Sequence record: NC_028925.1
Reading direction: 5' to 3' (one strand)
Length of the DNA stretch: 64,000 nt
Source: Escherichia phage vB_EcoM_VR25
Program-made: the position numbers and the translations under genes
Notes under the pieces: model-generated
What the model saw: only the letters and a program-made list of their open reading frames with translations
What the model was told of the DNA's origin: nothing
Database searches by the model: none
Shown: positions 14,463 to 50,359 of the stretch, one piece after another
Layout: every line of letters starts with the position of its first letter
Numbering within the stretch: position 1 is the first letter of the stretch

Positions 14463-14678
14463 TTACGCATATTTCTTATCAATATAAAAATGACCGCCAC
14501 CTTTGATAAAGACCCAGAATAGATTTCTATCGTCTGTATCCCGACAGTAAAAATCATCTAACTGGAAATAGTTTTCTTCAGGGAATTCAAGATGTCGGCC
14601 GAGTTCTATTGCATCAGAACCGAACGCTTTAGTAGCGGGACGACCGTCATCGTCCCATTTCTTGAAATTGAATTTCAT
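14463..14678 (-). CDS. hypothetical protein, 71 aa (position of soc.1)
   Basis: ORF in the array. Confidence 0.45.
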   Translation of the reverse strand: MKFNFKKWDDDGRPATKAFGSDAIELGRHLEFPEENYFQLDDFYCRDTDDRNLFWVFIKGGGHFYIDKKYA

Positions 14679-14887
14679 TTTGAGTGCTCAGCAATCAGTT
14701 TTAAAGTCTCTTCATTAACCCAATCGAACATGTGCATATGGTCGGATTTAACCGTAATCAATTGAGTAATATGACGGAGCTGATTAGCTAAGAGCTCTTC
14801 AACGAGCTCGTGGTCAGCATTTTTAATTAACCATTCTGCTCTCTTCTTACGAGCTTTCTTAAGCTGACGTTTATTTAAACGAGACAT
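14675..14887 (-). CDS. hypothetical basic protein, 70 aa (position of soc.2)
   Basis: ATGA/TAATG-coupled ORF. Confidence 0.45.
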   Translation of the reverse strand: MSRLNKRQLKKARKKRAEWLIKNADHELVEELLANQLRHITQLITVKSDHMHMFDWVNEETLKLIAEHSK

Positions 14888-15408
14888 TAATAACCTCGGT
14901 CCTGACGAGCAAAGTTCTCAGCATTTTTCAGGTAATACAATTTAAAGATTTCTTCAGCCGTAAGACCAAGGCCCTGGAACATATTCAGAACAAAGTGCAG
15001 AATATCAATCATTTCAAATTTAATTTCGAGCTGGTCTTCAGGAGACAAATCGTTAATCAGGGTTTGTTGCATTTCGCCATGCTGCGCTTTCCATGGTTTC
15101 CATACTGCAGATGCAGCTTTCTCACCATTAGACATGCCACCTAATGCAGTAATCAGTTCACGGAATTCATCATCGATATAATCTTTCTGGTTGCGGAGCC
15201 AGGTAACAACTTCGCCAGCAGTCGCCAGATTATCAGGGTGTTCGTTATATTCTGGTTTTTCTTTTGCTAAACGAACCTGCAATGATTTCTGCATATCAAG
15301 CATTACTTGCAGTGGGTCTTTATCTTCGTGAATCAGAGCATTAAAATATGCTTCTTCGGCTTTGTCAACACCAGCAATCAGTTGTGAACATTCATTAAAA
15401 TGTGCCAT
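14887..15408 (-). CDS. 56: dCTPase/dUTPase-type nucleotide pyrophosphohydrolase (gp56-like), 173 aa
   Basis: Size and position match T4 gp56; all-alpha MazG-like composition. Confidence 0.7.
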   Translation of the reverse strand: MAHFNECSQLIAGVDKAEEAYFNALIHEDKDPLQVMLDMQKSLQVRLAKEKPEYNEHPDNLATAGEVVTWLRNQKDYIDDEFRELITALGGMSNGEKAASAVWKPWKAQHGEMQQTLINDLSPEDQLEIKFEMIDILHFVLNMFQGLGLTAEEIFKLYYLKNAENFARQDRGY

Positions 15409-18330: not shown

Positions 18331-18624
18331 TTATTCACCTGTAACTTCTTTGACGATGTTTTCATTTTCAAAGTTAGGGTCACAATACAACACGTAATTA
18401 TACTGCATAACCCCACCAGATGCCAACTGGTCAGATACTTCTTTGACCTTGTTTGGTTGGTCACGTTTAGTGATGTTCATGATGTCCGCATAAATCTGGT
18501 GCTCAACTGCTTCCTGGTCAGCGGTCATTGACCACTCGCATAAGTCTTTATCATAACCAGCGGTAACTGGAGCTGCATGACATGAAGCGAGGACTAAGAT
18601 TGCTGCGATAGATAACTTTTTCAT
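18331..18624 (-). CDS. sp: Spackle periplasmic protein (Sp), 97 aa
   Basis: Signal peptide plus GYDKDLCEWSMTADQ ... GGVMQYNYVLYCD, matching T4 Sp by recall. Confidence 0.9.
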   Translation of the reverse strand: MKKLSIAAILVLASCHAAPVTAGYDKDLCEWSMTADQEAVEHQIYADIMNITKRDQPNKVKEVSDQLASGGVMQYNYVLYCDPNFENENIVKEVTGE

Positions 18625-21733: not shown

Positions 21734-22062
21734 CTCTTTTTCATTTTAATCTTATCAATTTCATCTTGTATTTGCATTGTAACACACTTTTCTACATGCA
21801 CTGCAAGCTCCGCTTTGCGGTCTTCAGAAGGGGTGCCGAAATCAACTGAAACTTTTCCAGATGGTTCAATTTTAATTCCGGTTACGTACACAATGTGACT
21901 GGACCCATCGGGAAGTGATAACAGAATTTCCTGTCGTACAGTTCCCATGGATTGCCGGATAATCTCCAAACTTTTTTCGTAGTAAGGTACAGAAGGAGCC
22001 TTAGCTCCCTCCGCATCTTTCTCGAAATTATCTAAATCAGATAAATCGATATCATTCATCAA
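21718..22062 (-). CDS. 40: gp40 head vertex assembly protein, 114 aa
   Basis: Size and position between 41 and uvsX as in T4. Confidence 0.6.
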   Translation of the reverse strand: MMNDIDLSDLDNFEKDAEGAKAPSVPYYEKSLEIIRQSMGTVRQEILLSLPDGSSHIVYVTGIKIEPSGKVSVDFGTPSEDRKAELAVHVEKCVTMQIQDEIDKIKMKKRWWKW

Positions 22063-23230
22063 GGTCTTCCATCATATCTAAATCGTTTTCGATATCTGCC
22101 GCAGATGGTTTTGTCTTACCCACCGGAGCAGAGTATTTTTCAACCTTGGAGGCAATAAGCTCATCAACTTCGGCATCAACAACAGCATTGCTATCGATTG
22201 CACCCAGTTGGTAATGACGTTTGATTGCATCACGGAAAGGTTCGTGCTTGAACAGTGGGCCCCAGAATTCGGTGCAGTTAGTATCTTTGGCTCGCCATGA
22301 TTTTTCTTCGCGGACCATTTCACCGGTCTCAACATCAAGATATTCACGGTTATACCAACCAACTTTCGGCTTCACCACAAATCCGATTTCCATTGCCATA
22401 TCGAGCAGGCCAGAATACGGGTCAATACCACCATCGAATTTTACATCAATGAAGAATTTACTTTTCTCTTTGACCATGCGAGATTTTTCGGCGTTCAGAA
22501 CAAATTGGAAGCCTTCAAGTTCTTTACCAGTTTCTTTAATCTGGCGTTTGCCGATAATGAATACGGTATCCGCAGAATACATAACACCAGTACCACCGGT
22601 CATAACTGTTTTGCTATACATCTCAATCGTCTCGATTGTATGGTTAACCGCGACACAAGGGATATCCTTGATACTAAAGAACGGTGTTACAATACGGAAC
22701 AGAGATTTCAGGGATTTAGCACGAGTCATATCGCCGACGACTTTTTCGTTCAATGCATCTTCTGTTTCTTTTTTCGATGCCATGTTACCGATTGAGTCAA
22801 TAAAGATAATGACTTTTTCGCCACGCTCAATTGCTTCAAGCTGGTTAACCATATCAACTTTCAATTGTTCGACCGACTGGATTGGTGTGTGGATAACACG
22901 TTCCGGGTCTACTTTCATTGCACGAAGATATGCTTCTGTGATACCAAATTCTGAATCATAGAACAAACAGATTGCTTCGGGGTATTTGTTCATATATGCA
23001 GAGACCATCGTTAAACCCATATTGGATTTAAAGTGTTTTGACGGACCAGCAAAAATAGTCAAACCTGACTGCATACCACCATCTAGTGCACCGCTGATTG
23101 CAATGTTCAGCATAGGGATTTTTGTACGAACTACATCTTTATCATTAAAGAACTTGGACTTGGTAAGAGTCGCGGTCATTTTGGATGTAGAAGCTTTAAT
23201 CAAACGGGATTTCAAATCTGCAATAGACAT
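22052..23230 (-). CDS. uvsX: UvsX recombinase (RecA-like), 392 aa
   Basis: RecA-type fold sequence; size and position match T4 UvsX. Confidence 0.9.
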   Translation of the reverse strand: MSIADLKSRLIKASTSKMTATLTKSKFFNDKDVVRTKIPMLNIAISGALDGGMQSGLTIFAGPSKHFKSNMGLTMVSAYMNKYPEAICLFYDSEFGITEAYLRAMKVDPERVIHTPIQSVEQLKVDMVNQLEAIERGEKVIIFIDSIGNMASKKETEDALNEKVVGDMTRAKSLKSLFRIVTPFFSIKDIPCVAVNHTIETIEMYSKTVMTGGTGVMYSADTVFIIGKRQIKETGKELEGFQFVLNAEKSRMVKEKSKFFIDVKFDGGIDPYSGLLDMAMEIGFVVKPKVGWYNREYLDVETGEMVREEKSWRAKDTNCTEFWGPLFKHEPFRDAIKRHYQLGAIDSNAVVDAEVDELIASKVEKYSAPVGKTKPSAADIENDLDMMEDLDE

Positions 23231-23421
23231 TCATTTTTTCCATAGGCATCATCATATTTTTCTCACAGGTTTAAGATAGGATAATTATATCACTGTATTT
23301 TTAGAGCAATTAACTTAGTAAACGTTTCCACGTTTCCAGTTTTCTTCAGCCAAATACTTATTATGCTTTTCTAATAACAACAAACCAATTACTGTTACAA
23401 CAATCAGAAGTAATAATAACA

Positions 23422-23925
23422 TCAGTTAATACCTTGACGAGCTTTTTCTTTGGCAATACATTTGTTGATATAAGTCAGACGAGCTTTAGCAGAACGCTGA
23501 TACAATGCATTATACTCTTTTGCTTCTGGAGCGCCTGTCTCCATTGCACGATAAGCTTCTGCACGCATTACATTAATTTGCATACCAATATAAGCTGCGC
23601 ATGTTTCAGCGATGCGAGCAACCATATCCAGGTCATTCTGGCGCTTGGTTTCTGCTTCCAGTTTAGCGATTACTTCATCATGCTTCGCGGCTTGTTCGCG
23701 CTGATATTCAACTTCACGTTGAGCATAATTTGCACAGTTATTTCCACACTGACTATTGGCACGTTTGTAAATCAGACCAGTCCCGCCTTTAAAATCAAAG
23801 GAACCATTATAGCGGGCTTTATCCGCAGCAACACGAGCTTGTCCAACTTCATCAGCACGCACAACATCGCCTTGGTAAGCACAACCAGACAATAACAGAA
23901 CTGCAGCAATCGCTAACTTTTTCAT
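23422..23925 (-). CDS. putative lipoprotein, about 167 aa
   Basis: Start at an internal ATG with GAGGA Shine-Dalgarno; signal peptide with lipobox LSGC; occupies the slot where T4 has beta-gt and 42. Confidence 0.6.
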   Translation of the reverse strand: MKKLAIAAVLLLSGCAYQGDVVRADEVGQARVAADKARYNGSFDFKGGTGLIYKRANSQCGNNCANYAQREVEYQREQAAKHDEVIAKLEAETKRQNDLDMVARIAETCAAYIGMQINVMRAEAYRAMETGAPEAKEYNALYQRSAKARLTYINKCIAKEKARQGIN

Positions 23926-24072
23926 TGTATTTTCCTCAATTAAAACATTCAAACTTGATTTGTAAAATTAACATTATCCAAGCCAAAATAAGAGTTGGAA
24001 TCATTGGTGGAACTGTCACTGCAAAGTAAACAGTCATACCAACAAATATCAGTAAAAGTAAACTAGTTATAA

Positions 24073-24315
24073 TCATTGTTTCACCACAATAATTTGTGCG
24101 TTTGTTTTACGTTCAGCAACGATTGCCCAAATCAATGCAATTACCCAACCAATCATCGTCCAACCAAACAGAAGGTTGATGAAAAAGATTCCGACATTGC
24201 TTCGGGTGCCACGCAGTAATGCGATAATCCATGGTAAGAAATATCCGATGAACATAACGACAAGAGAACCAAAACCAAACACACCAGCACCTACGATTAA
24301 AGCTTCCATTTTCAT
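24073..24315 (-). CDS. imm: superinfection immunity protein Imm (membrane), about 80 aa
   Basis: Two hydrophobic helices with LLFGWTMIGWVIALIWAI signature; immediately upstream of gene 43 as in T4; start ambiguous between two nearby ATGs. Confidence 0.7.
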   Translation of the reverse strand: MKMEALIVGAGVFGFGSLVVMFIGYFLPWIIALLRGTRSNVGIFFINLLFGWTMIGWVIALIWAIVAERKTNAQIIVVKQ

Positions 24316-24370
24316 ATCCTCATTTAGTTGATGAAAGAATAATACGGCAATCCATTGCCGTTGTAAACAC

Positions 24371-27085
24371 TTAAAAGTCAAACATATCAAAAAGAGTTGC
24401 TTTCTTTTCGTAATCAACCTTTGCAGCTTCAGAGAAACCTGTCAATGGCTTAACAAAAGTCTTCTGGAACAGTGTGTTGTAGTCCATCCATTGCAGGACC
24501 TGGTCGCGGATTTCAATCGGGAGTTCAATCCCCGATGGCCATGCAATCACAGTTTCACCAAACGGGTTGCCGACTTTAAGAGGAAGCACATACACTTTTT
24601 CCCCTTCCATGATTTGCGGAACAGTCTTCAGACCTTTAGTTGCACGCATATAAGCGAGCACACCTTTGATATGAGCCGGGCACTTAAATCCAGGGAAACC
24701 ACCTTCGTTATATTTCTGGATGTTGTTAACCGATGATACACCCGCGATGGTCATATAGTTAAGCTCATTAAATTCCTTGTTGAATTCCTTGAAGTATGTC
24801 TGCAGAGATTCTTCACCTTCTTGCAACATACGACGGATACATTCTTTCAGAGCTTTCTGGCATGCCTTTGGAGTACTCGACTTTTGAGTTTCCAGTCCCA
24901 TGATTTTCAGTTTCGGAACAGCATATCGTGTGCCTTCCATATCATATACGTTCAGTGCATAACGCTTCTTCGCTGTCCAGAATCCACCAACACCTTTAGA
25001 ACCCAGCGGAGGACATGCAATTGCTTCACGGTCCATAAACATAAGGTGCTGTTTGTTGTTCATGTATTCAGCCAGTTCACGGAAAGCTTTATCGATTGCC
25101 GGTTCCAGACGGTCTTTTGCAAACTTGTCCATGAAGTCAACCAGGTGGTTTGTATCACGGAATTTAGATTCGCCACCAACCTTTTTAATCAGGTTATCGC
25201 ACTGGATATAAATGGAGTCAGTATCACCATAGAATACGTAAGTCTGACCTTGTGTACCACAAACACCATCAAAGTATTCGTTAACTTTACGTTCAATCCA
25301 CTGCAATGCCAACTGCCCGAAAGATGTAATCGCAGTTGCATTTCGCAGGTCAAAGTAACGGAACCAGATATTGCCCAGGGCACCATAACAGCTATTGATA
25401 AGCAGTTTACGGTTAATCTGTGCGGTCATACCAGCAACTTCTTCCATCTGTGCTTTATACAGCATACCATTCAGGACGGTTTGATTCAGACCATGTAAGG
25501 TTGTTTTCATATTGTCATCAAAGTCATGACGATAATCAACTTCTGGTTCGGTTGTGCCGGTTCCTGGATTACTCAGAGCTTCCTTAATCAGTTCACCATT
25601 ACGTTGAGCAGCAAGCATATAACCTTTGTGTTCTTTACGCTGATTAAACACCTTGGTGACTTCTGTCGGAATAATACCCGCAACATCTTTAAAATACATC
25701 ATACCATTTGGCGCACAACTAAATGCATCAGATGGACGGTCAGCAGTTCCTGCGATGTATTCGTGCATATGGGCTGGTGCAAATGACCCGGCAATCGTTT
25801 CTGGACTGATGTTAATCTGTCGGATGATGCTCGGATAAAGAGATGTTAAGTCGCAGCTCATTACATATTTGTATGCGTTCGGAATCGGTTCCTTAACAAA
25901 TGCACCAGGGAACGATTGACGAACATGTGATTTGGTTTCCGGGATAACCTTGTTTTGAGTCTTCAGACTGTTAAAGATAATCGCATCCCAAGTTTTGATT
26001 GGGCTGAATACAGACTGAATCTGCATCTTTGCATAATAACCCATCGATTGGCTCAGGTTAATGAACTGTCGCTTACGGTCAATCTGTACAACACGATAAA
26101 CGTCAATGATGTTATAGCTAATGTATCGCTGATGATTTGATTCGCGCAGTTTAGAAATCGGGCCATCATACGGGAGTTTACCAACGCCCAGCTCAGATTC
26201 CGCAACATAGTCCAACGAGTAAGATGGTTGGTTTGTGAAGCTGAACTTTTTGTACAGGTCCAGATAATCCAGAACAGAGACACCCAGAATCTGAATGATT
26301 TCTTGTTCTTCACCAAAGCCGTTGTTAATGACTTTAACTTTTGTACGACGATGTGGACTTAGACGTTTTGCCGTAGCTTCACCAAATACATTTTTTAGGC
26401 GGTTGTAGATATATGGAATATCAAATTTCTCGATGTTCCAACCAGTTAACATAACCGGAGTTTTCTCGTTCCAGAATACCAAATACTGCTGGAGCATTTC
26501 TTCTTCTGAATCGAAAGCCATATAAACAATTTTTTCAAGGATTTCACTCGGGACTTCATCACCACCATCTTCCTGCAGCTTAGCAGCAATATCAATAGAC
26601 CATTGCTCCACAGTAGCGTATGGTGAGCCCAAAAGGTCAAAGACATAGAATTTATCGTCTACCGAATCATAGTGCGTCAGGGCATCAATAGGGTGACGTG
26701 CTTCAGACGGCTCAGGGAACCCATCAGGAGATGTCACCTCGATATCGAAGTTAGCCACACGGATTTTACTTGAATCATATTTGATTTCATGTGGGTAACG
26801 GTCGCTCAGGTATGCGAGTTTGAAATCGTCCATACCCATAGCTTCGAGGCCCATATCGTTCATGCGCTTCATCCATTGCGAAGCATCACGCATGGAATCA
26901 AACTCTTTTTTCACACAACCTTTATTATAGATGTCTGAATATTTTGTTGCTTGGCCTTCACGAGCGTGCATAAAGAGACAAGGAGTATATGGAATTTCAC
27001 GGGTTCGCTCATTACCATTCTTGTCAATATAACGTTCGTGAAGATTATCGCCGATTTGTTCGATAGTTAAATAAAATTCTTGCAT
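24371..27085 (-). CDS. 43: DNA polymerase gp43 (family B), 904 aa
   Basis: Exonuclease FDIE and polymerase YGDTDS motifs; size matches T4 gp43. Confidence 0.95.
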   Translation of the reverse strand: MQEFYLTIEQIGDNLHERYIDKNGNERTREIPYTPCLFMHAREGQATKYSDIYNKGCVKKEFDSMRDASQWMKRMNDMGLEAMGMDDFKLAYLSDRYPHEIKYDSSKIRVANFDIEVTSPDGFPEPSEARHPIDALTHYDSVDDKFYVFDLLGSPYATVEQWSIDIAAKLQEDGGDEVPSEILEKIVYMAFDSEEEMLQQYLVFWNEKTPVMLTGWNIEKFDIPYIYNRLKNVFGEATAKRLSPHRRTKVKVINNGFGEEQEIIQILGVSVLDYLDLYKKFSFTNQPSYSLDYVAESELGVGKLPYDGPISKLRESNHQRYISYNIIDVYRVVQIDRKRQFINLSQSMGYYAKMQIQSVFSPIKTWDAIIFNSLKTQNKVIPETKSHVRQSFPGAFVKEPIPNAYKYVMSCDLTSLYPSIIRQINISPETIAGSFAPAHMHEYIAGTADRPSDAFSCAPNGMMYFKDVAGIIPTEVTKVFNQRKEHKGYMLAAQRNGELIKEALSNPGTGTTEPEVDYRHDFDDNMKTTLHGLNQTVLNGMLYKAQMEEVAGMTAQINRKLLINSCYGALGNIWFRYFDLRNATAITSFGQLALQWIERKVNEYFDGVCGTQGQTYVFYGDTDSIYIQCDNLIKKVGGESKFRDTNHLVDFMDKFAKDRLEPAIDKAFRELAEYMNNKQHLMFMDREAIACPPLGSKGVGGFWTAKKRYALNVYDMEGTRYAVPKLKIMGLETQKSSTPKACQKALKECIRRMLQEGEESLQTYFKEFNKEFNELNYMTIAGVSSVNNIQKYNEGGFPGFKCPAHIKGVLAYMRATKGLKTVPQIMEGEKVYVLPLKVGNPFGETVIAWPSGIELPIEIRDQVLQWMDYNTLFQKTFVKPLTGFSEAAKVDYEKKATLFDMFDF

Positions 27086-27170: not shown

Positions 27171-27377
27171 TTAAATTTCTACTACTTGTTTTTGCATTTG
27201 TGGATGGCGATTTTCATCATAAGTAAAACACATTATAACTTTACGCTCAGGGTGCTTTTCTAAAGTTTCTTTTACCTGATATTGGATTTGTTCATCTATA
27301 GGAAGATTTATCCAGGCTGGTGCAGGGATAATAATATTACCCATATCTGAAACGGTTAGTTGAGCAATAGAATTCAT
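27171..27377 (-). CDS. hypothetical protein, about 68 aa
   Basis: ATG one nt after the regA stop; no counterpart between regA and 43 in T4 as recalled. Confidence 0.45.
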   Translation of the reverse strand: MNSIAQLTVSDMGNIIIPAPAWINLPIDEQIQYQVKETLEKHPERKVIMCFTYDENRHPQMQKQVVEI

Positions 27378-38305: not shown

Positions 38306-38776
38306 TTAATCATGTTTCCACACCCCATCGGTATTTGACCAAAGTCGCTGATTATCCGACCCTCGCCATAGCTTTTTAGTCGGAAGATTTTTCTCATACT
38401 TCCCATCAATAATAACATCAACATATTTAATCATTTCTAGTTGTTTAATATCTTCAAACTTATATCCTGTCCACAGCCAAATGCTTTTATTGGGATAAAG
38501 ATTTTTAATAGTTTGAACCACAGAGTGAATAACATCTCGGTTATCGGGATAGAGAGGGTCTCCTCCAGTTATAGTTAATCCTTCTATATAATCATTATTC
38601 AAACATTCAATTAATTGTTCTAGTGTTTCACCAGTGAATGGAACGCCATTTCTAGCATTCCATGTTGATTTATTATAACACCCTTCGCATTTATGCAAAC
38701 AACCTGTAACGAAAAGAACGGTCCTGCACCCAGGACCATTAATAAAATCGCAAGGATAAATTCTATCATAATTCAT
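38306..38776 (-). CDS. nrdG: anaerobic ribonucleotide reductase activating protein NrdG (radical SAM), 156 aa
   Basis: CxxxCxxC cluster motif (CLHKCEGC); ATGA-coupled to nrdD. Confidence 0.9.
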   Translation of the reverse strand: MNYDRIYPCDFINGPGCRTVLFVTGCLHKCEGCYNKSTWNARNGVPFTGETLEQLIECLNNDYIEGLTITGGDPLYPDNRDVIHSVVQTIKNLYPNKSIWLWTGYKFEDIKQLEMIKYVDVIIDGKYEKNLPTKKLWRGSDNQRLWSNTDGVWKHD

Positions 38777-40590
38777 TGGTGTTTAACCCTATGCATGATT
38801 TCTTTATTTTTGCCGAGATTAAATCCGCGTTCGTTCGGGTTTCCAAGATAGCCGCATGTTCTTCTTATGGTGTTCATCTTTTTGGGGTCAGTTTCTCCAC
38901 AAATAGAACAAACAAATCCGTTTTCAGTAGGAGTCATTTCATGAGTACTTCCACATGTAAAACATTTATCCACTGGCATATTAACACCAAAATAATCTAA
39001 ATGCTGTGCAGCATAATCCCATACGGTCTCAAGACCTTTTAAATTGTTTTTCATGTCAGGTAATTCAACATAAGAAATGTGACCACCTGTCGCAATGAAA
39101 TGATATGGCGCTTCATGAGAAATCTTTTCAAACGGAGTAATATTTTTTTCTACTGAAACATGGAAACTGTTAGTGTACCATCCTTTATCGGTAACATCTT
39201 TTACACTTCCATATTTTTCTGTATCGAGTTTACAGAATCGATAACACAGGTTTTCAGCAGGAGTGGAGTACAGGCTAAAAGCGAATCCGGTTCTTTCAGT
39301 CCATTGTTTAAGACAAGCATTCATTTTAGTCAAAATTTCTTGTCCAATATCACGACCGACAAGAATATTCAATTCGTGAATACCAATGTATCCTAGGGAC
39401 ACTGAACTTCTACCGTTTTTAAATAACTCAATTATATCATCGTCGGGTTTAAGACGAACCCCGAATGCACCTTCTTGGTAAAGAATAGGGGCAACAGTCG
39501 CTTTAACTCCTTTTAAGGAATTAATTCTACACATCAAAGCTTCAAAACACAAATTCATTCGTTCATTGAATAATTCAACAAATTTCTGTTCATTGAATTG
39601 CGTTCCAATATAAGAATCTAATGCAATACGAGGAAGATTCAGTGTTACAACACCAAGATTATTACGTCCATCAAGAATTTCATTACCAGTCGAATCTTTC
39701 CATACGCTCAAGAAACTACGGCAACCCATTGGAGAAACAGGAACAGATGAGCCGGTGATAGCTTTATTGTTCTTAGCTGAAATAATATCAGGATACATCC
39801 TTTTGCTTGCACACTCTAGAGCAAGCTGCTTGATATCATAGTTCGGGTCGTCTTTATAAAGATTAACACCTTCTTCAACAAACATAACAAGCTTAGGGAA
39901 AATAGGAGTTATTCCATCACGACCAAGACCTTTAATACGATTTTTCAGAATTGCTTTCTGAATCATTCGTTCAGTCCAGTCAGTTCCCGTACCAAATGTA
40001 ATTGTCACAAAAGGGGTCTGTCCGTTTGAACTAAAGAGAGTGTTTACTTCATATTCATAAGCTTGGAATGCATCATATACATCTTTTTCTGTTTTAGATT
40101 GGGCATAATTCAACGCATCAGTGATTTGCCATTTTTCTGCATCCTCAATATGTTTTGCATAGGTGCGTTTAACATAAGGAGAAAATACTTTGTCTACATT
40201 AGCAAAAGTCGTTCCGCCATATTGGTGAGAAGCAACTTGTGCAGTAATTTGTGCCATAATTGCAGTAGCAACACCAATTGATTTAGGAGTTTCAATCTGT
40301 GCATTACCGAGCTTAAATCCGTTTTCAAGCATTCCTTTTAAATCTACTAAACAACAATTAGTAAATGGAAGAGCAGGGGAATAATCAATATCATGGAAAT
40401 GAATAATTCCGCTTTCATGTGCTTTCATAATAAAAGACGCGACCATATTTTTGGCAATGTGTTTAGATACAATACCAGCCATAAGGTCCCGTTGAGTTGG
40501 AAAAACACGAGAATCTTTATTAGCATTCTCGTTTAAAAGGTCTTTATTAGTTTTATGAATCAATCCTTCAATTTCTTTTTCAATTGTCAT
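38773..40590 (-). CDS. nrdD: anaerobic ribonucleoside-triphosphate reductase NrdD, 605 aa, uninterrupted
   Basis: Glycyl-radical C-terminal motif RTCGYLG and Zn-ribbon cysteines; one continuous ORF, no intron. Confidence 0.95.
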   Translation of the reverse strand: MTIEKEIEGLIHKTNKDLLNENANKDSRVFPTQRDLMAGIVSKHIAKNMVASFIMKAHESGIIHFHDIDYSPALPFTNCCLVDLKGMLENGFKLGNAQIETPKSIGVATAIMAQITAQVASHQYGGTTFANVDKVFSPYVKRTYAKHIEDAEKWQITDALNYAQSKTEKDVYDAFQAYEYEVNTLFSSNGQTPFVTITFGTGTDWTERMIQKAILKNRIKGLGRDGITPIFPKLVMFVEEGVNLYKDDPNYDIKQLALECASKRMYPDIISAKNNKAITGSSVPVSPMGCRSFLSVWKDSTGNEILDGRNNLGVVTLNLPRIALDSYIGTQFNEQKFVELFNERMNLCFEALMCRINSLKGVKATVAPILYQEGAFGVRLKPDDDIIELFKNGRSSVSLGYIGIHELNILVGRDIGQEILTKMNACLKQWTERTGFAFSLYSTPAENLCYRFCKLDTEKYGSVKDVTDKGWYTNSFHVSVEKNITPFEKISHEAPYHFIATGGHISYVELPDMKNNLKGLETVWDYAAQHLDYFGVNMPVDKCFTCGSTHEMTPTENGFVCSICGETDPKKMNTIRRTCGYLGNPNERGFNLGKNKEIMHRVKHQ

Positions 40591-44490: not shown

Positions 44491-45408
44491 TTATTTTAAT
44501 GCTTTGATTGCAGCTTGCAATTTATTGCGTTGCGTTTCCATGTTCTTGATGCGATTCAGGACATCCTGGATACCCTTCTTCTCATCTTCAATCAGACCAT
44601 TTAAGCGGTTGACTGATTCCTTGATAGCATCCGCATGATAGCTCTCAATAGGCTTCATTGTTGGGTTAAAGATTTCAAGAGAGCTGGATGGCTGGACATT
44701 CCATTTGTACATATTTTTAACGTCCAGTGGTGAAATTTTGGTCTGGTCATAAGATTTAAATTGACCTGCAAATGCTGGGCCATATGCCGCAGTAGGGGTA
44801 CGTTCCATTTCTGGTTCCTTTTTCTCTTGATAAGGGGCATAAGACAAAAGATATTCTTTAGTCAATTTAATATCAATTGCTATAGTTTTAAGGAATTTTT
44901 CCGTTTGGTGGATATAATTTGTATCTTCATCAAACGTGTACGATTCAACAGCATGGCGCATATAAAACAGCGCAATACCCATAACCTCTTTAAAGTTATG
45001 ACAAAGAGCAACATCGCCCTTGGTGGTTGGTTTGAACTTAATCTGTACACCATCATTCTTGATATTGATAATCAAGTTATTGGAGTTAAAATTATAGTTC
45101 TTGATGTTAACCGGAGCTTTGCGAATACGAAATCCGCCGGCCAGAATTTCCTTGATACTCTTACGAACCGTGGCACCAAACAAAAACGCTGGGCGGCGGC
45201 AGTAATCATTCAGAGAGTTAATTCTTACAATACGTTGACCATACCCCTGGGTAGCAGAACCTGATTTGATTTTGCCAAAGTTAACCAAAGAATTCATTGC
45301 GATAAGACGAGTCACACGACCGTCATGTGGTTCATAACTACTAGCATATTCAGCGCGAGTTTTAATTTTCATATCATAGTCCAAATAATTTTTCATAAAA
45401 TTTAGCAA
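44491..45408 (-). CDS. hypothetical protein, 305 aa, C-terminal coiled coil ending AIKALK
   Basis: Long ORF; C-terminal end resembles the neighbouring genes. Confidence 0.55.
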   Translation of the reverse strand: MLNFMKNYLDYDMKIKTRAEYASSYEPHDGRVTRLIAMNSLVNFGKIKSGSATQGYGQRIVRINSLNDYCRRPAFLFGATVRKSIKEILAGGFRIRKAPVNIKNYNFNSNNLIINIKNDGVQIKFKPTTKGDVALCHNFKEVMGIALFYMRHAVESYTFDEDTNYIHQTEKFLKTIAIDIKLTKEYLLSYAPYQEKKEPEMERTPTAAYGPAFAGQFKSYDQTKISPLDVKNMYKWNVQPSSSLEIFNPTMKPIESYHADAIKESVNRLNGLIEDEKKGIQDVLNRIKNMETQRNKLQAAIKALK

Positions 45409-45589
45409 TAGGCCAAAACACCATCATAATTGCCCAAACAAACCAAAGCAGAGGCCATACTAGTGTAATGAATACTGCATCATAACTTGACTCAATTTCG
45501 ACTGGATTCCAATCACCAGATTTATGAATGATAATGGTCGTCATGAATCCTAGCATAAAGTAAAGGAGAATAAAACCTACAATTTCCAT
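45374..45589 (-). CDS. small membrane protein, 71 aa
   Basis: Two hydrophobic segments. Confidence 0.45.
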   Translation of the reverse strand: MEIVGFILLYFMLGFMTTIIIHKSGDWNPVEIESSYDAVFITLVWPLLWFVWAIMMVFWPIAKFYEKLFGL

Positions 45590-48335: not shown

Positions 48336-49346
48336 TTAACGATAATAGGAATTGTGGTTGTCAAGATATACCTCTTCAACAAACTTGTCCCAGAACTTCA
48401 TGTCTACCTTATCGGGCATACCGTTCTTCGCAGCCCAGACGGCATTGGTTTCGACTTCATCGACGATTGCTTCAAGTTCAGCTTGTACATCTTTAAAAGC
48501 GTGTAGGCCTTGTTTGATTTCAAGGATAAATGGAGCCGTACGTAAAGGATATTGGAGATCGCCTGCTTGATAGATTTCCTTTAACTGGTATCCAGCACGA
48601 TAAGCATGGCTCAGAGCTTTCCAGTCAATACCTTCGTTAGCTTCGGCCTTACGGGCGCGTTCGCCATATTCAGCATCAAGTTTATTCAGAGATTGCTTAA
48701 GCTCGATTAATGACAAAGTAGTTTGGTATTTGCGACCGAGAACAGTATAAAACGTTTGAGGTCCAGTTTTCTCATGGTTATGGAATACCCATTCGCAGAA
48801 TTCGTTCTCTGGGAGACGATGCTTAATATCTTCAACTTTAGTGCGACGTTGTTTAGTCGAACCATCTTCTTGGTAGTCAACCCACTGTTCAGGAATCTGG
48901 TTAACAATTGCCAGTACACCACGTAAAGCCGCCAGTCTAGAACCTTTAACACCATATTTTGAAGCTTGCTTACGGACGTACCCCAAATATGCTTTCATGT
49001 TGGTCGTATAGAACCGTGAACGGTTGTCTTGGATAAATTTCCATACATCTGGTAAATCGGATTTGACTACCAGGTTAGCCGGAGTGTGAATCATGTCCAG
49101 AGCAACAGTTTCGCCTTCAGCCGCCAGTTTAAAGAAATATTTCAGGCTATAAAGCTCGTGGTCAACATCGTCTTTTGTGTTTTTGGTAGCCGTGTTATTC
49201 GTGTTCAAGTTGGTATGGTTCATAGCCGTACCTAACAGAATGTCACGTGGGTGTGGAACAAAGATTTCCTTAAAATCGACATCAGATTCTGGAGTACTTG
49301 TTCCGTAAAGATGGCTACCGAAGTAGCCTTTCATAACTGTTCTCAT
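48336..49346 (-). CDS. Pol-beta-fold nucleotidyltransferase-like protein, 336 aa
   Basis: N-terminal FGSHLYGTSTPESDVDF fits the hG[GS]x(9-13)DhD NTase signature; ATGA-coupled to the upstream membrane protein gene. Confidence 0.55.
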   Translation of the reverse strand: MRTVMKGYFGSHLYGTSTPESDVDFKEIFVPHPRDILLGTAMNHTNLNTNNTATKNTKDDVDHELYSLKYFFKLAAEGETVALDMIHTPANLVVKSDLPDVWKFIQDNRSRFYTTNMKAYLGYVRKQASKYGVKGSRLAALRGVLAIVNQIPEQWVDYQEDGSTKQRRTKVEDIKHRLPENEFCEWVFHNHEKTGPQTFYTVLGRKYQTTLSLIELKQSLNKLDAEYGERARKAEANEGIDWKALSHAYRAGYQLKEIYQAGDLQYPLRTAPFILEIKQGLHAFKDVQAELEAIVDEVETNAVWAAKNGMPDKVDMKFWDKFVEEVYLDNHNSYYR

Positions 49347-49795
49347 TTCTTCGCCTCAAAATGGATTACTGGACATACCTTAGATTTACGAGCTTTAATG
49401 TATTGGACGACAAGGTTTTCTTTAATTTCCTTTCCTTCGCGTTTGGCTTTAATACGTTCCCATTCTTTTTCTTCTTTACGTAAATCATACCAGGCCCAGA
49501 AACTCATTGTACAATACACAACGCCAATGGCTACCGCCAGAATAAGAGCCAGTGTAGCCAGTCCTAAAATAAACCCTAACCCTAAACCAACAGGAGTACT
49601 TAATACAAAGAACTGTTCCAATACACCAGCCCCTGCAACAGTTAAGGCAAAGATTGTACTGCCTGCAAGCACAGAACAAATAAAGCAGACCCATACAATT
49701 TTCCAGAAGTAAGCACACAAAGAGTGTGGTCGAGAATAATGGCCATAAAAACGGTCGTGTAATTTAGTGTGCCAGGCATTTTCATTAATAATCAT
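49343..49795 (-). CDS. membrane protein, 150 aa (2-3 predicted TM helices, basic C-terminal tail)
   Basis: Long hydrophobic stretches IVWVCFICSVLAGSTIFALTVAG and LGFILGLATLALILAVAIGVV. Confidence 0.55.
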   Translation of the reverse strand: MIINENAWHTKLHDRFYGHYSRPHSLCAYFWKIVWVCFICSVLAGSTIFALTVAGAGVLEQFFVLSTPVGLGLGFILGLATLALILAVAIGVVYCTMSFWAWYDLRKEEKEWERIKAKREGKEIKENLVVQYIKARKSKVCPVIHFEAKK

Positions 49796-49804
49796 TGTAA
49801 TTCC

Positions 49805-50359
49805 TTATGCGTTCATAGTTGGGATAACAGTGTTCAGGTATTTTACCAGAACTTTTAATTCGTCTTTAGTGAATACTACTTCAGCTTCACCATCGTGGGT
49901 CTGGATGATAGATAACATATCACGACCTTGATATTGGTAGACACTGAATTCAGTATTATAATCGCCTTCTTCATCACCTTCAAAGGTTTCGCTTGAATGC
50001 ATAATCGCATCACACCCAGGGATTTTCCACTCGAGCTCAGGTACACACTCTTCTTGGAAGAGTTTAAAAATTTTCTCTAAAAATTCTGAACGGTTTTTAA
50101 TGGATAAACAAGCCCATTCAGTTTCCAGATTAAAGCCATTTTCACCTCGATACAACCAAGCCGCAACTTCATCGTTAATTTTAAAGACACGATTATGAGT
50201 TCGAATATACTGCTCTGCATCAATAACAGACAACTTGTACAGGTTCTGAATATCTTGAATGGTTAAAACGACTGTATCATCTTCTTGTTTAAGCACGATT
50301 GCATTATCAATTACATCGGCAGTCAGGTCACCAAACAACCCAGATTTTTCAATAATCAT
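49805..50359 (-). CDS. hypothetical acidic protein, 184 aa
   Basis: ORF in the array. Confidence 0.5.
   Translation of the reverse strand: MIIEKSGLFGDLTADVIDNAIVLKQEDDTVVLTIQDIQNLYKLSVIDAEQYIRTHNRVFKINDEVAAWLYRGENGFNLETEWACLSIKNRSEFLEKIFKLFQEECVPELEWKIPGCDAIMHSSETFEGDEEGDYNTEFSVYQYQGRDMLSIIQTHDGEAEVVFTKDELKVLVKYLNTVIPTMNA

What the first reader, a model, noticed from the sequence alone, without database searches (positions are those of the whole stretch)
23422..24315. Lipoprotein gene adjacent to imm: possible two-part superinfection-exclusion module
A 167-aa predicted lipoprotein (lipobox LSGC) lies directly next to the Imm superinfection-immunity gene, with two small membrane ORFs interleaved. 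Phage lipoproteins such as T5 Llp and Cor block receptors or DNA entry. Its position in the slot of the missing beta-gt/42 genes suggests a cargo replacement adding a second exclusion function.
Basis: inference. Interest (0 to 1): 0.5.

Follow-up and report, generated by a model that had tools for sequence, protein, structure and literature searches.

The report
Conserved phage lipoprotein beside imm
The gene is a real exported lipoprotein that T4-like phages keep just after their DNA polymerase gene, often beside the superinfection-immunity gene imm; it is not a newly acquired replacement, and its function is untested.

Summary
On the minus strand the order is gp43, imm, a 46-aa membrane ORF (T4 Y02C type), a 167-aa lipoprotein (lipobox LSGC), a 35-aa membrane ORF, then uvsX. 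The genes have overlapping or closely spaced stop and start codons and follow an early-promoter-like site.

The "cargo replacement" reading fails. Homologous lipoproteins sit directly after gp43 in at least seven Tevenvirinae genera. In several of them gp42 and a DNA-modification cassette are also present in the same slot. T4's lipoprotein Imm.1 occupies the same locus and falls in the same PHROG family.

The link to imm recurs in three arrangements: lipoprotein before imm, after imm, and moved with imm to sit beside spackle. It is not obligatory, because phage PM2 has the lipoprotein and no Imm anywhere in its genome.

The window is about 99-100% identical in protein to phage VR7 on both flanks. 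The imm/Y02C/lipoprotein cassette is a sharply bounded divergent island (75/51/78% identity). The lipoprotein gene shows dS of about 1.5 against 0.1 in the flanks, with dN/dS of about 0.1.

No homology or fold match to Llp, Cor, Spackle, spanins or any enzyme was found. The best guess is an outer-membrane-tethered periplasmic factor in phage-versus-phage or envelope protection, acting independently of Imm (confidence about 0.4). It is a new allele of a known but uncharacterised family.

The parts
24339..24367 (-). Early-promoter-like site (TTTACA, 17 nt, TATTAT) directly after the gp43 stop codon. A 7-bp hairpin (24344-24361) lies in its spacer and could also act as a terminator or attenuator for gp43 transcripts.
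   Evidence: (10 of 12 matches; hairpin listed as terminator-like) and the sequence. The resemblance to the T4 early promoter consensus is from my own knowledge, so function is inferred.
24073..24315 (-). imm, the superinfection-immunity membrane protein. The probable true start is the ATG at 24309, giving 78 aa.
   Evidence: PF14373 E 3e-18. phrog_1039 E 2e-32. 88% identical to JS98 Imm, 75% to VR7 and 46% to T4. Start reasoning and from the 78-aa genes called.
23936..24076 (-). 46-aa hydrophobic ORF of the T4 Y02C type. Its start overlaps the imm stop codon (ATGA).
   Evidence: phrog_3610 E 1e-22. tblastn hits in T4 (unannotated ORF between imm and 42, with the same ATGA overlap), JS98 orf44, VR7 '42.1', PM2, CIP9 and PEi20. 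Homologues carry the precomputed label PF26865 Phage_T4_Y02C.
23422..23925 (-). 167-aa lipoprotein precursor. The mature protein is 153 aa, about 17 kDa, pI 8.8, with four further cysteines (C60, C64, C109, C156).
23881..23925 (-). Signal peptide and lipobox (MKKLAIAAVLLLSG|C).
   Evidence: Read directly from the sequence. The lipobox is conserved in nearly all family members, and the residue at +2 is never Asp.
23425..23625 (-). Variable C-terminal part of the lipoprotein (residues 101-167): the end of the long helix plus the return helices.
   Evidence: Alleles P0002 and P0003 are 97-100% identical to the window over residues 1-100 but only 60-73% over residues 101-167, while their Imm is 100% identical. 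AlphaFold2 pLDDT exceeds 90 here.
23315..23422 (-). 35-aa ORF with an N-terminal hydrophobic helix. Its start overlaps the lipoprotein stop codon (TGATG). It is present only in some alleles.
   Evidence: tblastn finds it in phage 212 and in contigs L016, L017 and L020, but not in VR7 or EAWsc9. There is no significant family match.
23305..24325 (.). Sharply bounded divergent island (imm, Y02C, lipoprotein, orf35) within a backbone otherwise 98-100% identical to VR7.
   Evidence: 50-nt identity profile, per-gene identities and dS 1.3-1.6 inside against 0.1 outside.
23284..23309 (-). Middle-promoter-like site for uvsX: TTGCTCTA (MotA-box-like), 12 nt, TATAAT. It marks the downstream edge of the cassette.
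   Evidence: Sequence. The comparison with the T4 middle-promoter consensus is from my own knowledge, so this is inferred.

Best explanation
The ORF encodes a genuine Sec/LspA-processed lipoprotein. It belongs to a family that T4-like phages keep directly downstream of the DNA polymerase gene; T4's counterpart in that slot is Imm.1.

It is probably transcribed early, together with imm and the small Y02C membrane protein, from a promoter just after gene 43. Translation is probably coupled through the stop/start overlaps.

After lipidation, the absence of Asp at +2 predicts sorting to the inner leaflet of the outer membrane. The mature protein would hang into the periplasm on a flexible tether of about 25 residues. 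The tether carries a small beta-hairpin with a CGNNC loop and a helical hairpin about 10 nm long, probably stapled by the invariant C109-C156 pair.

My best guess is that it is a periplasmic factor for phage-versus-phage competition or envelope protection. It would bind or obstruct something that an incoming T-even phage needs between the outer membrane and the inner membrane. It would act in parallel with Imm rather than as its obligate partner, and its variable C-terminal helical surface would set specificity.

Shown here: the gene is real, the protein has an export and lipidation signal, the family and its synteny, selection on the gene, and the hypervariable island. Inferred: early expression, outer-membrane location, the disulfide, and the function.
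For: - Lipobox and signal peptide.
- Family-wide lipobox with non-Asp at +2, and an invariant Cys pair.
- phrog_1754 at E 9e-45; T4 Imm.1 hits the same PHROG at E 6e-43.
- Only 17 representative clusters among 1.84 billion proteins; all seven whose genomic context was examined lie in T4-like phage loci.
- Always directly downstream of gp43.
- Linked to imm in three different arrangements, including a joint move to sit beside spackle in Mosigvirus.
- Stop/start overlaps and an upstream early-promoter-like site.
- Divergent island between 99-100% identical flanks, with dS about 1.5 and dN/dS about 0.1.
- At least five lipoprotein alleles in near-isogenic backbones, and intragenic mosaicism confined to residues 101-167.
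- AlphaFold2 model with a long helical hairpin at pLDDT above 90.
Against: - There is no experimental datum on this family or on T4 Imm.1 in the searchable literature.
- No homology or fold match to any known exclusion protein.
- PM2 keeps the lipoprotein without any Imm. In Kanagawavirus and Mosugukvirus the gene is coupled to DNA-modification genes instead. The imm linkage may therefore be historical rather than functional.
- From my own knowledge (Lu and Henning 1989), plasmid-borne T4 imm alone confers immunity.
- Four other small divergent islands exist in the same 51 kb compared with VR7, so hypervariability is not unique to this cassette.
- T4-type Imm.1 is 95-100% identical across about 500 Tequatrovirus records, which is not what a fast arms race predicts for that branch.
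Confidence: 0.4

Rival explanations
1. It is a receptor-masking lipoprotein of the Llp/Cor kind. It would bind the periplasmic face of the outer-membrane protein that the phage uses as receptor, blocking adsorption of competitors and of progeny to cell debris.
For: It is predicted to be an outer-membrane-anchored periplasmic lipoprotein that is probably expressed early. Allelic variation is concentrated in one surface-forming region. There is precedent in T5 Llp (PMC9586334, listed; I did not open the paper).
Against: There is no similarity to Llp or Cor. The only Cor hit is the signal peptide, residues 1-18, at E 0.013, and the fold searches found nothing. The gene lies next to the DNA polymerase gene, not next to the receptor-binding protein gene as llp and cor do (own knowledge). 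T4-type Imm.1 is nearly invariant across about 500 Tequatrovirus records; from my own knowledge, that genus includes phages using OmpC, Tsx, FadL or OmpF.
Confidence: 0.12
2. It is an envelope-stabilising or lysis-timing factor. It would give resistance to lysis from without, or relay the periplasmic superinfection signal for lysis inhibition, rather than block entry.
For: The protein is predicted to be periplasmic. In Mosigvirus it clusters with spackle and imm, genes tied to lysis from without and to the fate of superinfecting DNA (own knowledge). The long helical hairpin could reach the peptidoglycan.
Against: It does not resemble RI, RIII or Spackle. The window has its own Sp at 18331-18624, 99% identical to VR7's. 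The spanin role is already filled by PseT.3/PseT.2 homologues in VR7, SP18 and JS98 (PMC6139136) and in PM2.
Confidence: 0.2
3. It is a counter-defence or host-physiology factor unrelated to phage competition. For example, it might neutralise a host periplasmic or outer-membrane protein such as a protease, a nuclease or an envelope-stress sensor. Its position beside imm would then reflect only shared early expression in a plastic slot.
For: It occurs without Imm in PM2 and is translationally coupled to a SIS-domain isomerase gene in PM2, CIP9, PEi20 and EcS1. The 43-uvsX slot is a known plastic region that holds unrelated cargo.
Against: No match in PADLOC, Pfam or NCBIfam points to such a target. 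The recurrent re-association with imm, including after relocation, is not explained.
Confidence: 0.2
4. It is a dispensable hitch-hiker ORF with no selected function.
For: No function is known, and it lies in a hyperplastic region.
Against: dN/dS is about 0.02-0.12. It is conserved down to about 30% identity across many genera, with invariant Gly, Tyr and Cys positions.
Confidence: 0.03

Closest known systems
T4 Imm.1 (Pfam DUF5481, PF17578)
   Same: It is a lipoprotein with a lipobox. It lies in the same locus, between gp43 and imm. It falls in the same PHROG (phrog_1754). It shares the lipobox-proximal motif xQGxVVxxxxVGq, and its two C-terminal cysteines align in register. Its distribution is complementary: Tequatrovirus and Mosigvirus carry Imm.1, while the other genera sampled carry the window type.
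   Different: It is shorter (125 aa). The window protein has no Pfam DUF5481 hit at E up to 1. With signal peptides removed, a full-length profile alignment reaches only probability 27%, E 7e-4. BFVD Foldseek does not retrieve it. It lies upstream rather than downstream of imm. Its function is equally unknown.
JS98 orf43 / VR7 ORF049c / CIP9 'lipoprotein' (the window protein's own family)
   Same: These are full-length homologues (78%, 51% and 31% identity). They have the same position after gp43, the same cysteine pattern and the same GTGLxYxRxxNQCGxNC motif.
   Different: The window carries a distinct allele, especially over residues 101-167. Some genera lack the adjacent imm.
T5 Llp and the Cor proteins of phi80/N15/T1-like phages
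   Same: They are small phage-encoded outer-membrane lipoproteins, and Llp is expressed early during infection (own knowledge; title of Decker et al. 1994 as quoted).
   Different: There is no sequence or fold similarity. This protein is much larger and helical. It is not adjacent to a receptor-binding protein gene. Receptor blocking is untested.
T4 Spackle (Sp)
   Same: It is a periplasmic, early superinfection-exclusion factor. In Mosigvirus it sits next to the Imm.1-imm pair.
   Different: Sp is a different family (PF25676). It is not a lipoprotein. It is encoded elsewhere in this window (18331-18624) and is 99% identical to VR7's.
T4 o-spanin PseT.2 / lambda Rz1
   Same: They are outer-membrane lipoproteins with periplasmic cysteines.
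   Different: Spanins are late lysis genes paired with an i-spanin. VR7, SP18 and JS98 already have PseT.3/PseT.2 homologues (PMC6139136). The only weak PHROG spanin hit is to the signal peptide region (E 0.31).

Membership tests
Bacterial lipoprotein (signal peptidase II substrate) | Positive n-region, hydrophobic h-region, and a lipobox [LVI][ASTVI][GAS]C within about the first 25 residues | tested here: met
   MKK-LAIAAVLL-LSGC, with Cys15. The lipobox is conserved in 18 of the 20 family members tabulated by pattern; PM2 reads LLGC by eye, and P0024 has a plain signal peptide instead.
Bacterial lipoprotein (signal peptidase II substrate) | Actual lipidation and outer-membrane sorting (no Asp at +2) | not testable with these tools
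   The residue at +2 is Ala here and A, V, Q, S, G or H in relatives, never Asp. Localisation is inferred from the E. coli +2 rule (own knowledge).
phrog_1754 (T4 Imm.1-like phage lipoproteins) | Significant full-length match to the family profile | tested here: met
   E 9e-45 over residues 1-161 against profile positions 2-147 of 148. T4 Imm.1 gives E 6e-43 against the same profile.
Pfam DUF5481 (T4 Imm.1 proper) | Match to PF17578 above the gathering score | tested here: not met
   No hit at E up to 1 for the window protein, and none at E up to 10 for seven relatives. T4 Imm.1 gives E 5e-72 and JK42 gives 4e-9.
Pfam DUF5481 (T4 Imm.1 proper) | Homology of the mature domains by profile-profile comparison | tested here: inconclusive
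   With signal peptides included, only the first 31 residues align (probability 96%). With mature parts only, the full length aligns with both conserved cysteines in register, but at probability 27% and E 7e-4.
T5 Llp / Cor receptor-blocking lipoproteins | Sequence or fold similarity to Llp or Cor | tested here: not met
T5 Llp / Cor receptor-blocking lipoproteins | Gene adjacent to the receptor-binding protein gene | tested here: not met
   The gene lies between gp43 and uvsX in every genome examined. The adjacency criterion itself is from my own knowledge.
T5 Llp / Cor receptor-blocking lipoproteins | Blocks the phage's outer-membrane receptor | not testable with these tools
   This needs adsorption assays.
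Imm superinfection immunity (neighbouring gene) | Match to PF14373 above the gathering score | tested here: met
   E 3e-18, 65.8 bits against a cut-off of 27.9.
Two-component spanin (o-spanin) | Outer-membrane lipoprotein gene embedded in, overlapping or adjacent to an i-spanin gene; a late lysis function | tested here: not met
   There is no i-spanin neighbour. VR7, SP18 and JS98 are listed with T4-type PseT.3/PseT.2 spanins (PMC6139136), and PM2 annotates them elsewhere.
Obligate Imm-lipoprotein two-part system | The two genes always co-occur | tested here: not met
   The PM2 genome (170,286 bp) has the lipoprotein, but its best Imm hit is tblastn E 0.39 and HMM E 0.21. Imm-like proteins occur in 1,729 phage records against 126 plus 657 for the two lipoprotein types.

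The most novel reading that the evidence does not exclude
Imm and Y02C in the inner membrane and the outer-membrane-tethered lipoprotein could together form a periplasm-spanning barrier. In that case the lipoprotein's swappable C-terminal helical hairpin would decide which competing T-even phages are excluded. The hypervariable cassette would then be an allele-specific incompatibility locus among near-identical Gapriverviruses, and T4 Imm.1 would be a long-overlooked third exclusion gene.
Probability: 0.12. Interest if true: 0.7.

Novelty: new member of a known kind. Interest (0 to 1): 0.35.

Why it matters
T4's two exclusion genes, imm and sp, have been known for decades. The lipoprotein gene next to imm (imm.1 in T4, and this family elsewhere) has never been characterised. 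One paper assumed a role in exclusion from the name alone (PMC5885020).

This analysis shows three things:
- A lipoprotein is a near-universal resident of the slot after gp43.
- It re-associates with imm in several arrangements.
- In Gapriverviruses it lies in an island that differs between otherwise near-identical phages.

Together these make a concrete, testable candidate for a further envelope-level competition factor. That matters for phage cocktail design and for understanding interference between phages. If it turns out to have no such role, it remains an ordinary conserved hypothetical gene.

Tried and rejected
- **Family scans.** Pfam, NCBIfam and PADLOC scans of all four ORFs gave nothing for the lipoprotein or for either small ORF; the only match was Imm to PF14373. 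Weak hits to Rab_bind, FerB and a T6SS immunity lipoprotein (signal peptide only) were dismissed.
- **LysM-like hits.** Repeated weak hits over residues 37-61 (PDB profile E 0.23; PF23577 E 0.026 for P0007) are too short and too weak, so I rejected them.
- **Literature.** Searches for imm.1, DUF5481, lipoprotein with Imm/spackle, and Tevenvirinae exclusion found no functional study. The Lu and Henning 1989 paper is not held.
- **Spanin idea.** Rejected.
- **Cargo replacement for 42/beta-gt.** Rejected on synteny.
- **Short metagenomic contigs.** Contexts for P0024 and P0026 were too short to be informative.

Full report
**What is in the sequence**

All genes in this region lie on the minus strand. 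In order they are:
- gp43 DNA polymerase (24371-27085).
- imm (24073-24315; the likelier start is the ATG at 24309).
- A 46-aa hydrophobic ORF (23936-24076).
- A 167-aa ORF (23422-23925).
- A 35-aa ORF (23315-23422).
- uvsX (22052-23230).

The 167-aa product begins MKKLAIAAVLLLSGC. This is a textbook lipoprotein signal, with lipobox LSGC and Ala at +2. Imm matches Pfam PF14373 at E 3e-18.

The genes are tightly packed:
- The imm stop codon overlaps the 46-aa ORF start (ATGA).
- The lipoprotein ATG follows a GAGGA box by 7 nt.
- The lipoprotein stop codon overlaps the 35-aa ORF start (TGATG).

Directly after the gp43 stop codon there is a TTTACA-17-TATTAT site, a 10 of 12 match, with a 7-bp hairpin in its spacer. 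It resembles a T4 early promoter; that comparison rests on my own knowledge. After the 35-aa ORF there is a MotA-box-like TTGCTCTA, then 12 nt, then TATAAT, in front of uvsX (inferred). The one exception is that the second small ORF lies downstream of the lipoprotein gene and, apart from the one shared base at 23422, outside the stated coordinates.

**Is the gene real, and what family is it?**

The protein matches phrog_1754 (function unknown) at E 9e-45 over its full length. It has no Pfam, NCBIfam or PADLOC match.

A tblastn search finds it in 126 phage records. Gaprivervirus gives about 77% identity, Dhakavirus about 50%, and Kanagawavirus, Mosugukvirus and the Serratia, Kosakonia, Erwinia and Edwardsiella phages about 30%.

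An exhaustive HMMER search of 1.84 billion representative proteins found only 17 clusters. All seven whose genomic context I looked at lie in T4-like phage loci; two of those contigs were too short to add more.

The family alignment has these conserved features:
- Invariant G48, G50, Y53, G61, C109 and C156.
- A nearly invariant lipobox and the motif Q-C-G-x-N-C.
- A residue at +2 that is never Asp.

Pairwise dN/dS against other Gaprivervirus alleles is about 0.10, so the gene is under purifying selection.

**Synteny, and why "cargo replacement" fails**

The lipoprotein always lies directly downstream of gp43, in the same orientation:

| Phage or group | Gene order |
|---|---|
| VR7, phage 212, EAWsc9, this window | 43, imm, Y02C, lipoprotein, (orf35), uvsX |
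| JS98 and a related contig (L012) | 43, imm, Y02C, lipoprotein, NTP-transferase and further modification-cassette genes (gp42 confirmed in L012) |
| PM2, CIP9, PEi20, EcS1 and a metagenomic contig | 43, lipoprotein, SIS isomerase, Y02C (not called in the metagenomic contig L019), NTP-transferase; in PM2 then gp42 and uvsX; no imm in the stretches shown |
| Gelderlandvirus SEA1 and a Klebsiella phage | 43, lipoprotein, imm, 42 |

The SEA1 and Klebsiella proteins have lipoboxes and are homologous to this family. SEA1 aligns with the window protein over 119 residues of the mature part (E 2e-6), and the Klebsiella protein matches P0022 and P0008.

The lipoprotein therefore coexists with gp42 and DNA-modification genes in the same slot. 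In the VR7 lineage that cassette is simply absent. T4 gp42 and beta-gt have no hit in the 64-kb window, and VR7's first 50 kb has no annotated gene 42 or glucosyltransferase.

**Relation to T4 Imm.1**

T4 has the order 43, imm.1, imm, an unannotated 49-aa Y02C ORF, 42, beta-gt, segA, uvsX. T4 Imm.1 has these properties:
- It is a lipoprotein with lipobox LAGC.
- It defines Pfam DUF5481.
- It hits the same phrog_1754 at E 6e-43.
- It shares with the window protein the motif that follows the lipid-attachment cysteine: A-Y-Q-G-D-V-V-R-A-D-E-V-G-Q in the window against V-A-Q-G-P-V-V-N-Q-S-D-V-G-K in T4. hhalign gives probability 92-96% over the first 30 residues or so.

With signal peptides removed, a permissive profile alignment spans the full length and puts both conserved cysteines in register. 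It reaches only probability 27% and E 7e-4. BFVD Foldseek does not link the two proteins. I therefore treat Imm.1 as a probable but unproven divergent relative, and certainly as the positional counterpart.

Distributions are complementary. DUF5481 is found in 657 records, all Tequatrovirus or Mosigvirus. In Mosigvirus JK42 the DUF5481 lipoprotein and Imm sit together in a different place, between dmd and spackle.

**How tight is the link with imm?**

The link is recurrent but not obligatory. The complete PM2 genome (170,286 bp) encodes the lipoprotein, Y02C, Sp and the PseT.2/PseT.3 spanins. It has no Imm: the best tblastn E-value with eight Imm queries is 0.39, and the best HMM E-value is 0.21. 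Imm-like proteins occur in 1,729 phage records, far beyond the lipoprotein's range.

**A hypervariable island**

The window is a close relative of VR7:

| Protein | Identity to VR7 |
|---|---|
| gp41 | 99.8% |
| gp40 | 100% |
| UvsX | 100% |
| gp43 | 99.7% |
| RegA | 100% |
| Sp | 99% |
| Imm | 75% |
| Y02C | 51% |
| Lipoprotein | 78% |

A 50-nt identity profile shows sharp boundaries at about 23305 and 24325. For the lipoprotein gene, dS between the window and VR7 is 1.56, against 0.11 for uvsX and gp43. The island is therefore an old allele brought in by recombination, not rapid change in place.

The window's Imm is 88% identical to Dhakavirus JS98 Imm, whereas its lipoprotein is closest to the Gaprivervirus type.

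Across contigs with 98-100% identical flanks, the lipoprotein runs through at least five further alleles, at about 86, 85, 77-78, 69 and 41% identity to the window. Alleles P0002 and P0003 have 100% identical Imm and 97-100% identical lipoprotein residues 1-100, but only 60-73% identity over residues 101-167. A breakpoint therefore lies inside the gene, and the C-terminal helices are the variable part.

One caveat applies. Four other small divergent islands exist in the 51 kb comparable with VR7, so this is one of several plastic spots.

**Structure**

AlphaFold2 with 26 sequences gives a mean pLDDT of 75. The model contains:
- A disordered tether after the lipid-attachment cysteine.
- A low-confidence helix and a beta-hairpin at residues 41-55, carrying the CGNNC loop.
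- A confident long helix (63-130) with return helices (135-164).

At 1.5 Å per residue, the long helix is about 10 nm. The invariant C109 and C156 lie on opposite arms, so a disulfide staple is plausible (inferred). Fold searches gave only generic helical hairpins or the protein's own family.

**Interpretation**

The most economical reading is as follows. The gene encodes a periplasmic lipoprotein that is probably expressed early and is predicted to be tethered to the outer membrane. It is a standing resident of the slot after gp43 in T4-like phages, is repeatedly kept next to imm, and in Gapriverviruses belongs to a recombining, allele-rich cassette.

This fits a role in phage-versus-phage competition or envelope protection, carried out in parallel with Imm. 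I put that at about 0.4.

A receptor-masking role like Llp or Cor is a narrower version of the same idea, and I rate it lower for three reasons:
- There is no homology to Llp or Cor.
- The gene is not next to adhesin genes.
- T4-type Imm.1 is almost invariant across Tequatroviruses.

Lysis-related and counter-defence roles remain open. A spanin role is excluded, because these phages already have T4-type spanins (PMC6139136).

No paper in the searchable library reports a function for Imm.1 or for this family. One paper merely assumes that Imm.1 is involved in exclusion (PMC5885020).

**Verdict**

The gene is a new allele of a known but uncharacterised phage lipoprotein family. It is moderately interesting as a testable lead and is not a new kind of system.

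Noticed in passing
window 14463-15408: The gp56 dCTPase-like protein (14887-15408) is only 69% identical to VR7's, while its neighbours are at least 97% identical. Two small ORFs (14463-14887, one matching DUF7422) occupy the place of VR7's segF homing endonuclease.
   Followed up: partly
window 38306-40590: The anaerobic ribonucleotide reductase genes nrdD (PF13597, E 2.5e-170) and nrdG are present here but have no counterpart in the first 50 kb of VR7.
   Followed up: partly
whole window 1-64000: There is no tblastn hit to T4 gp42 (dCMP hydroxymethylase) or beta-glucosyltransferase anywhere in the window, although a gp56 dCTPase is present. Related genera carry gp42 plus an NTP-transferase/SIS-isomerase cassette in the 43-uvsX slot. 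The cytosine-modification state of this lineage was not resolved.
   Followed up: partly
window 24073-24315 and L006 2123-2359: The window's Imm is 88% identical to Dhakavirus JS98 Imm but only 65-75% identical to Imm of the Gapriverviruses that share its 99% identical flanks. This is an inter-genus mosaic.
   Followed up: yes
L005 6228-6377 (T4 record 26227-26376): T4 has an unannotated 49-aa ORF between imm and gene 42. It is homologous to the window's 46-aa ORF and has the same ATGA overlap with the imm stop codon. The local Pfam copy does not recognise it, but precomputed labels call its homologues PF26865 Phage_T4_Y02C.
   Followed up: yes
L017 1-2555: In a metagenomic contig carrying the identical lipoprotein allele, gp43 is split by a 232-aa GIY-YIG/NUMOD3 homing-endonuclease-like ORF.
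   Followed up: partly
L023 2262-4400: In the P0008 allele contig the imm stop codon overlaps the lipoprotein start directly, with no Y02C between them. A 469-aa ORF with a weak REase_MTES_1575 hit lies between the lipoprotein gene and uvsX.
   Followed up: partly
window 45374-45589 and 49343-50359: These are further small islands of low identity to VR7 (51%, 80% and 73%) in an otherwise 95-100% identical backbone.
   Followed up: no
window 27171-27377: A 68-aa ORF between gp43 and regA matches Pfam Phage_RB18_ORF43 (E 9e-15) but has no tblastn hit in VR7's first 50 kb. VR7 has a different small ORF at that position.
   Followed up: no
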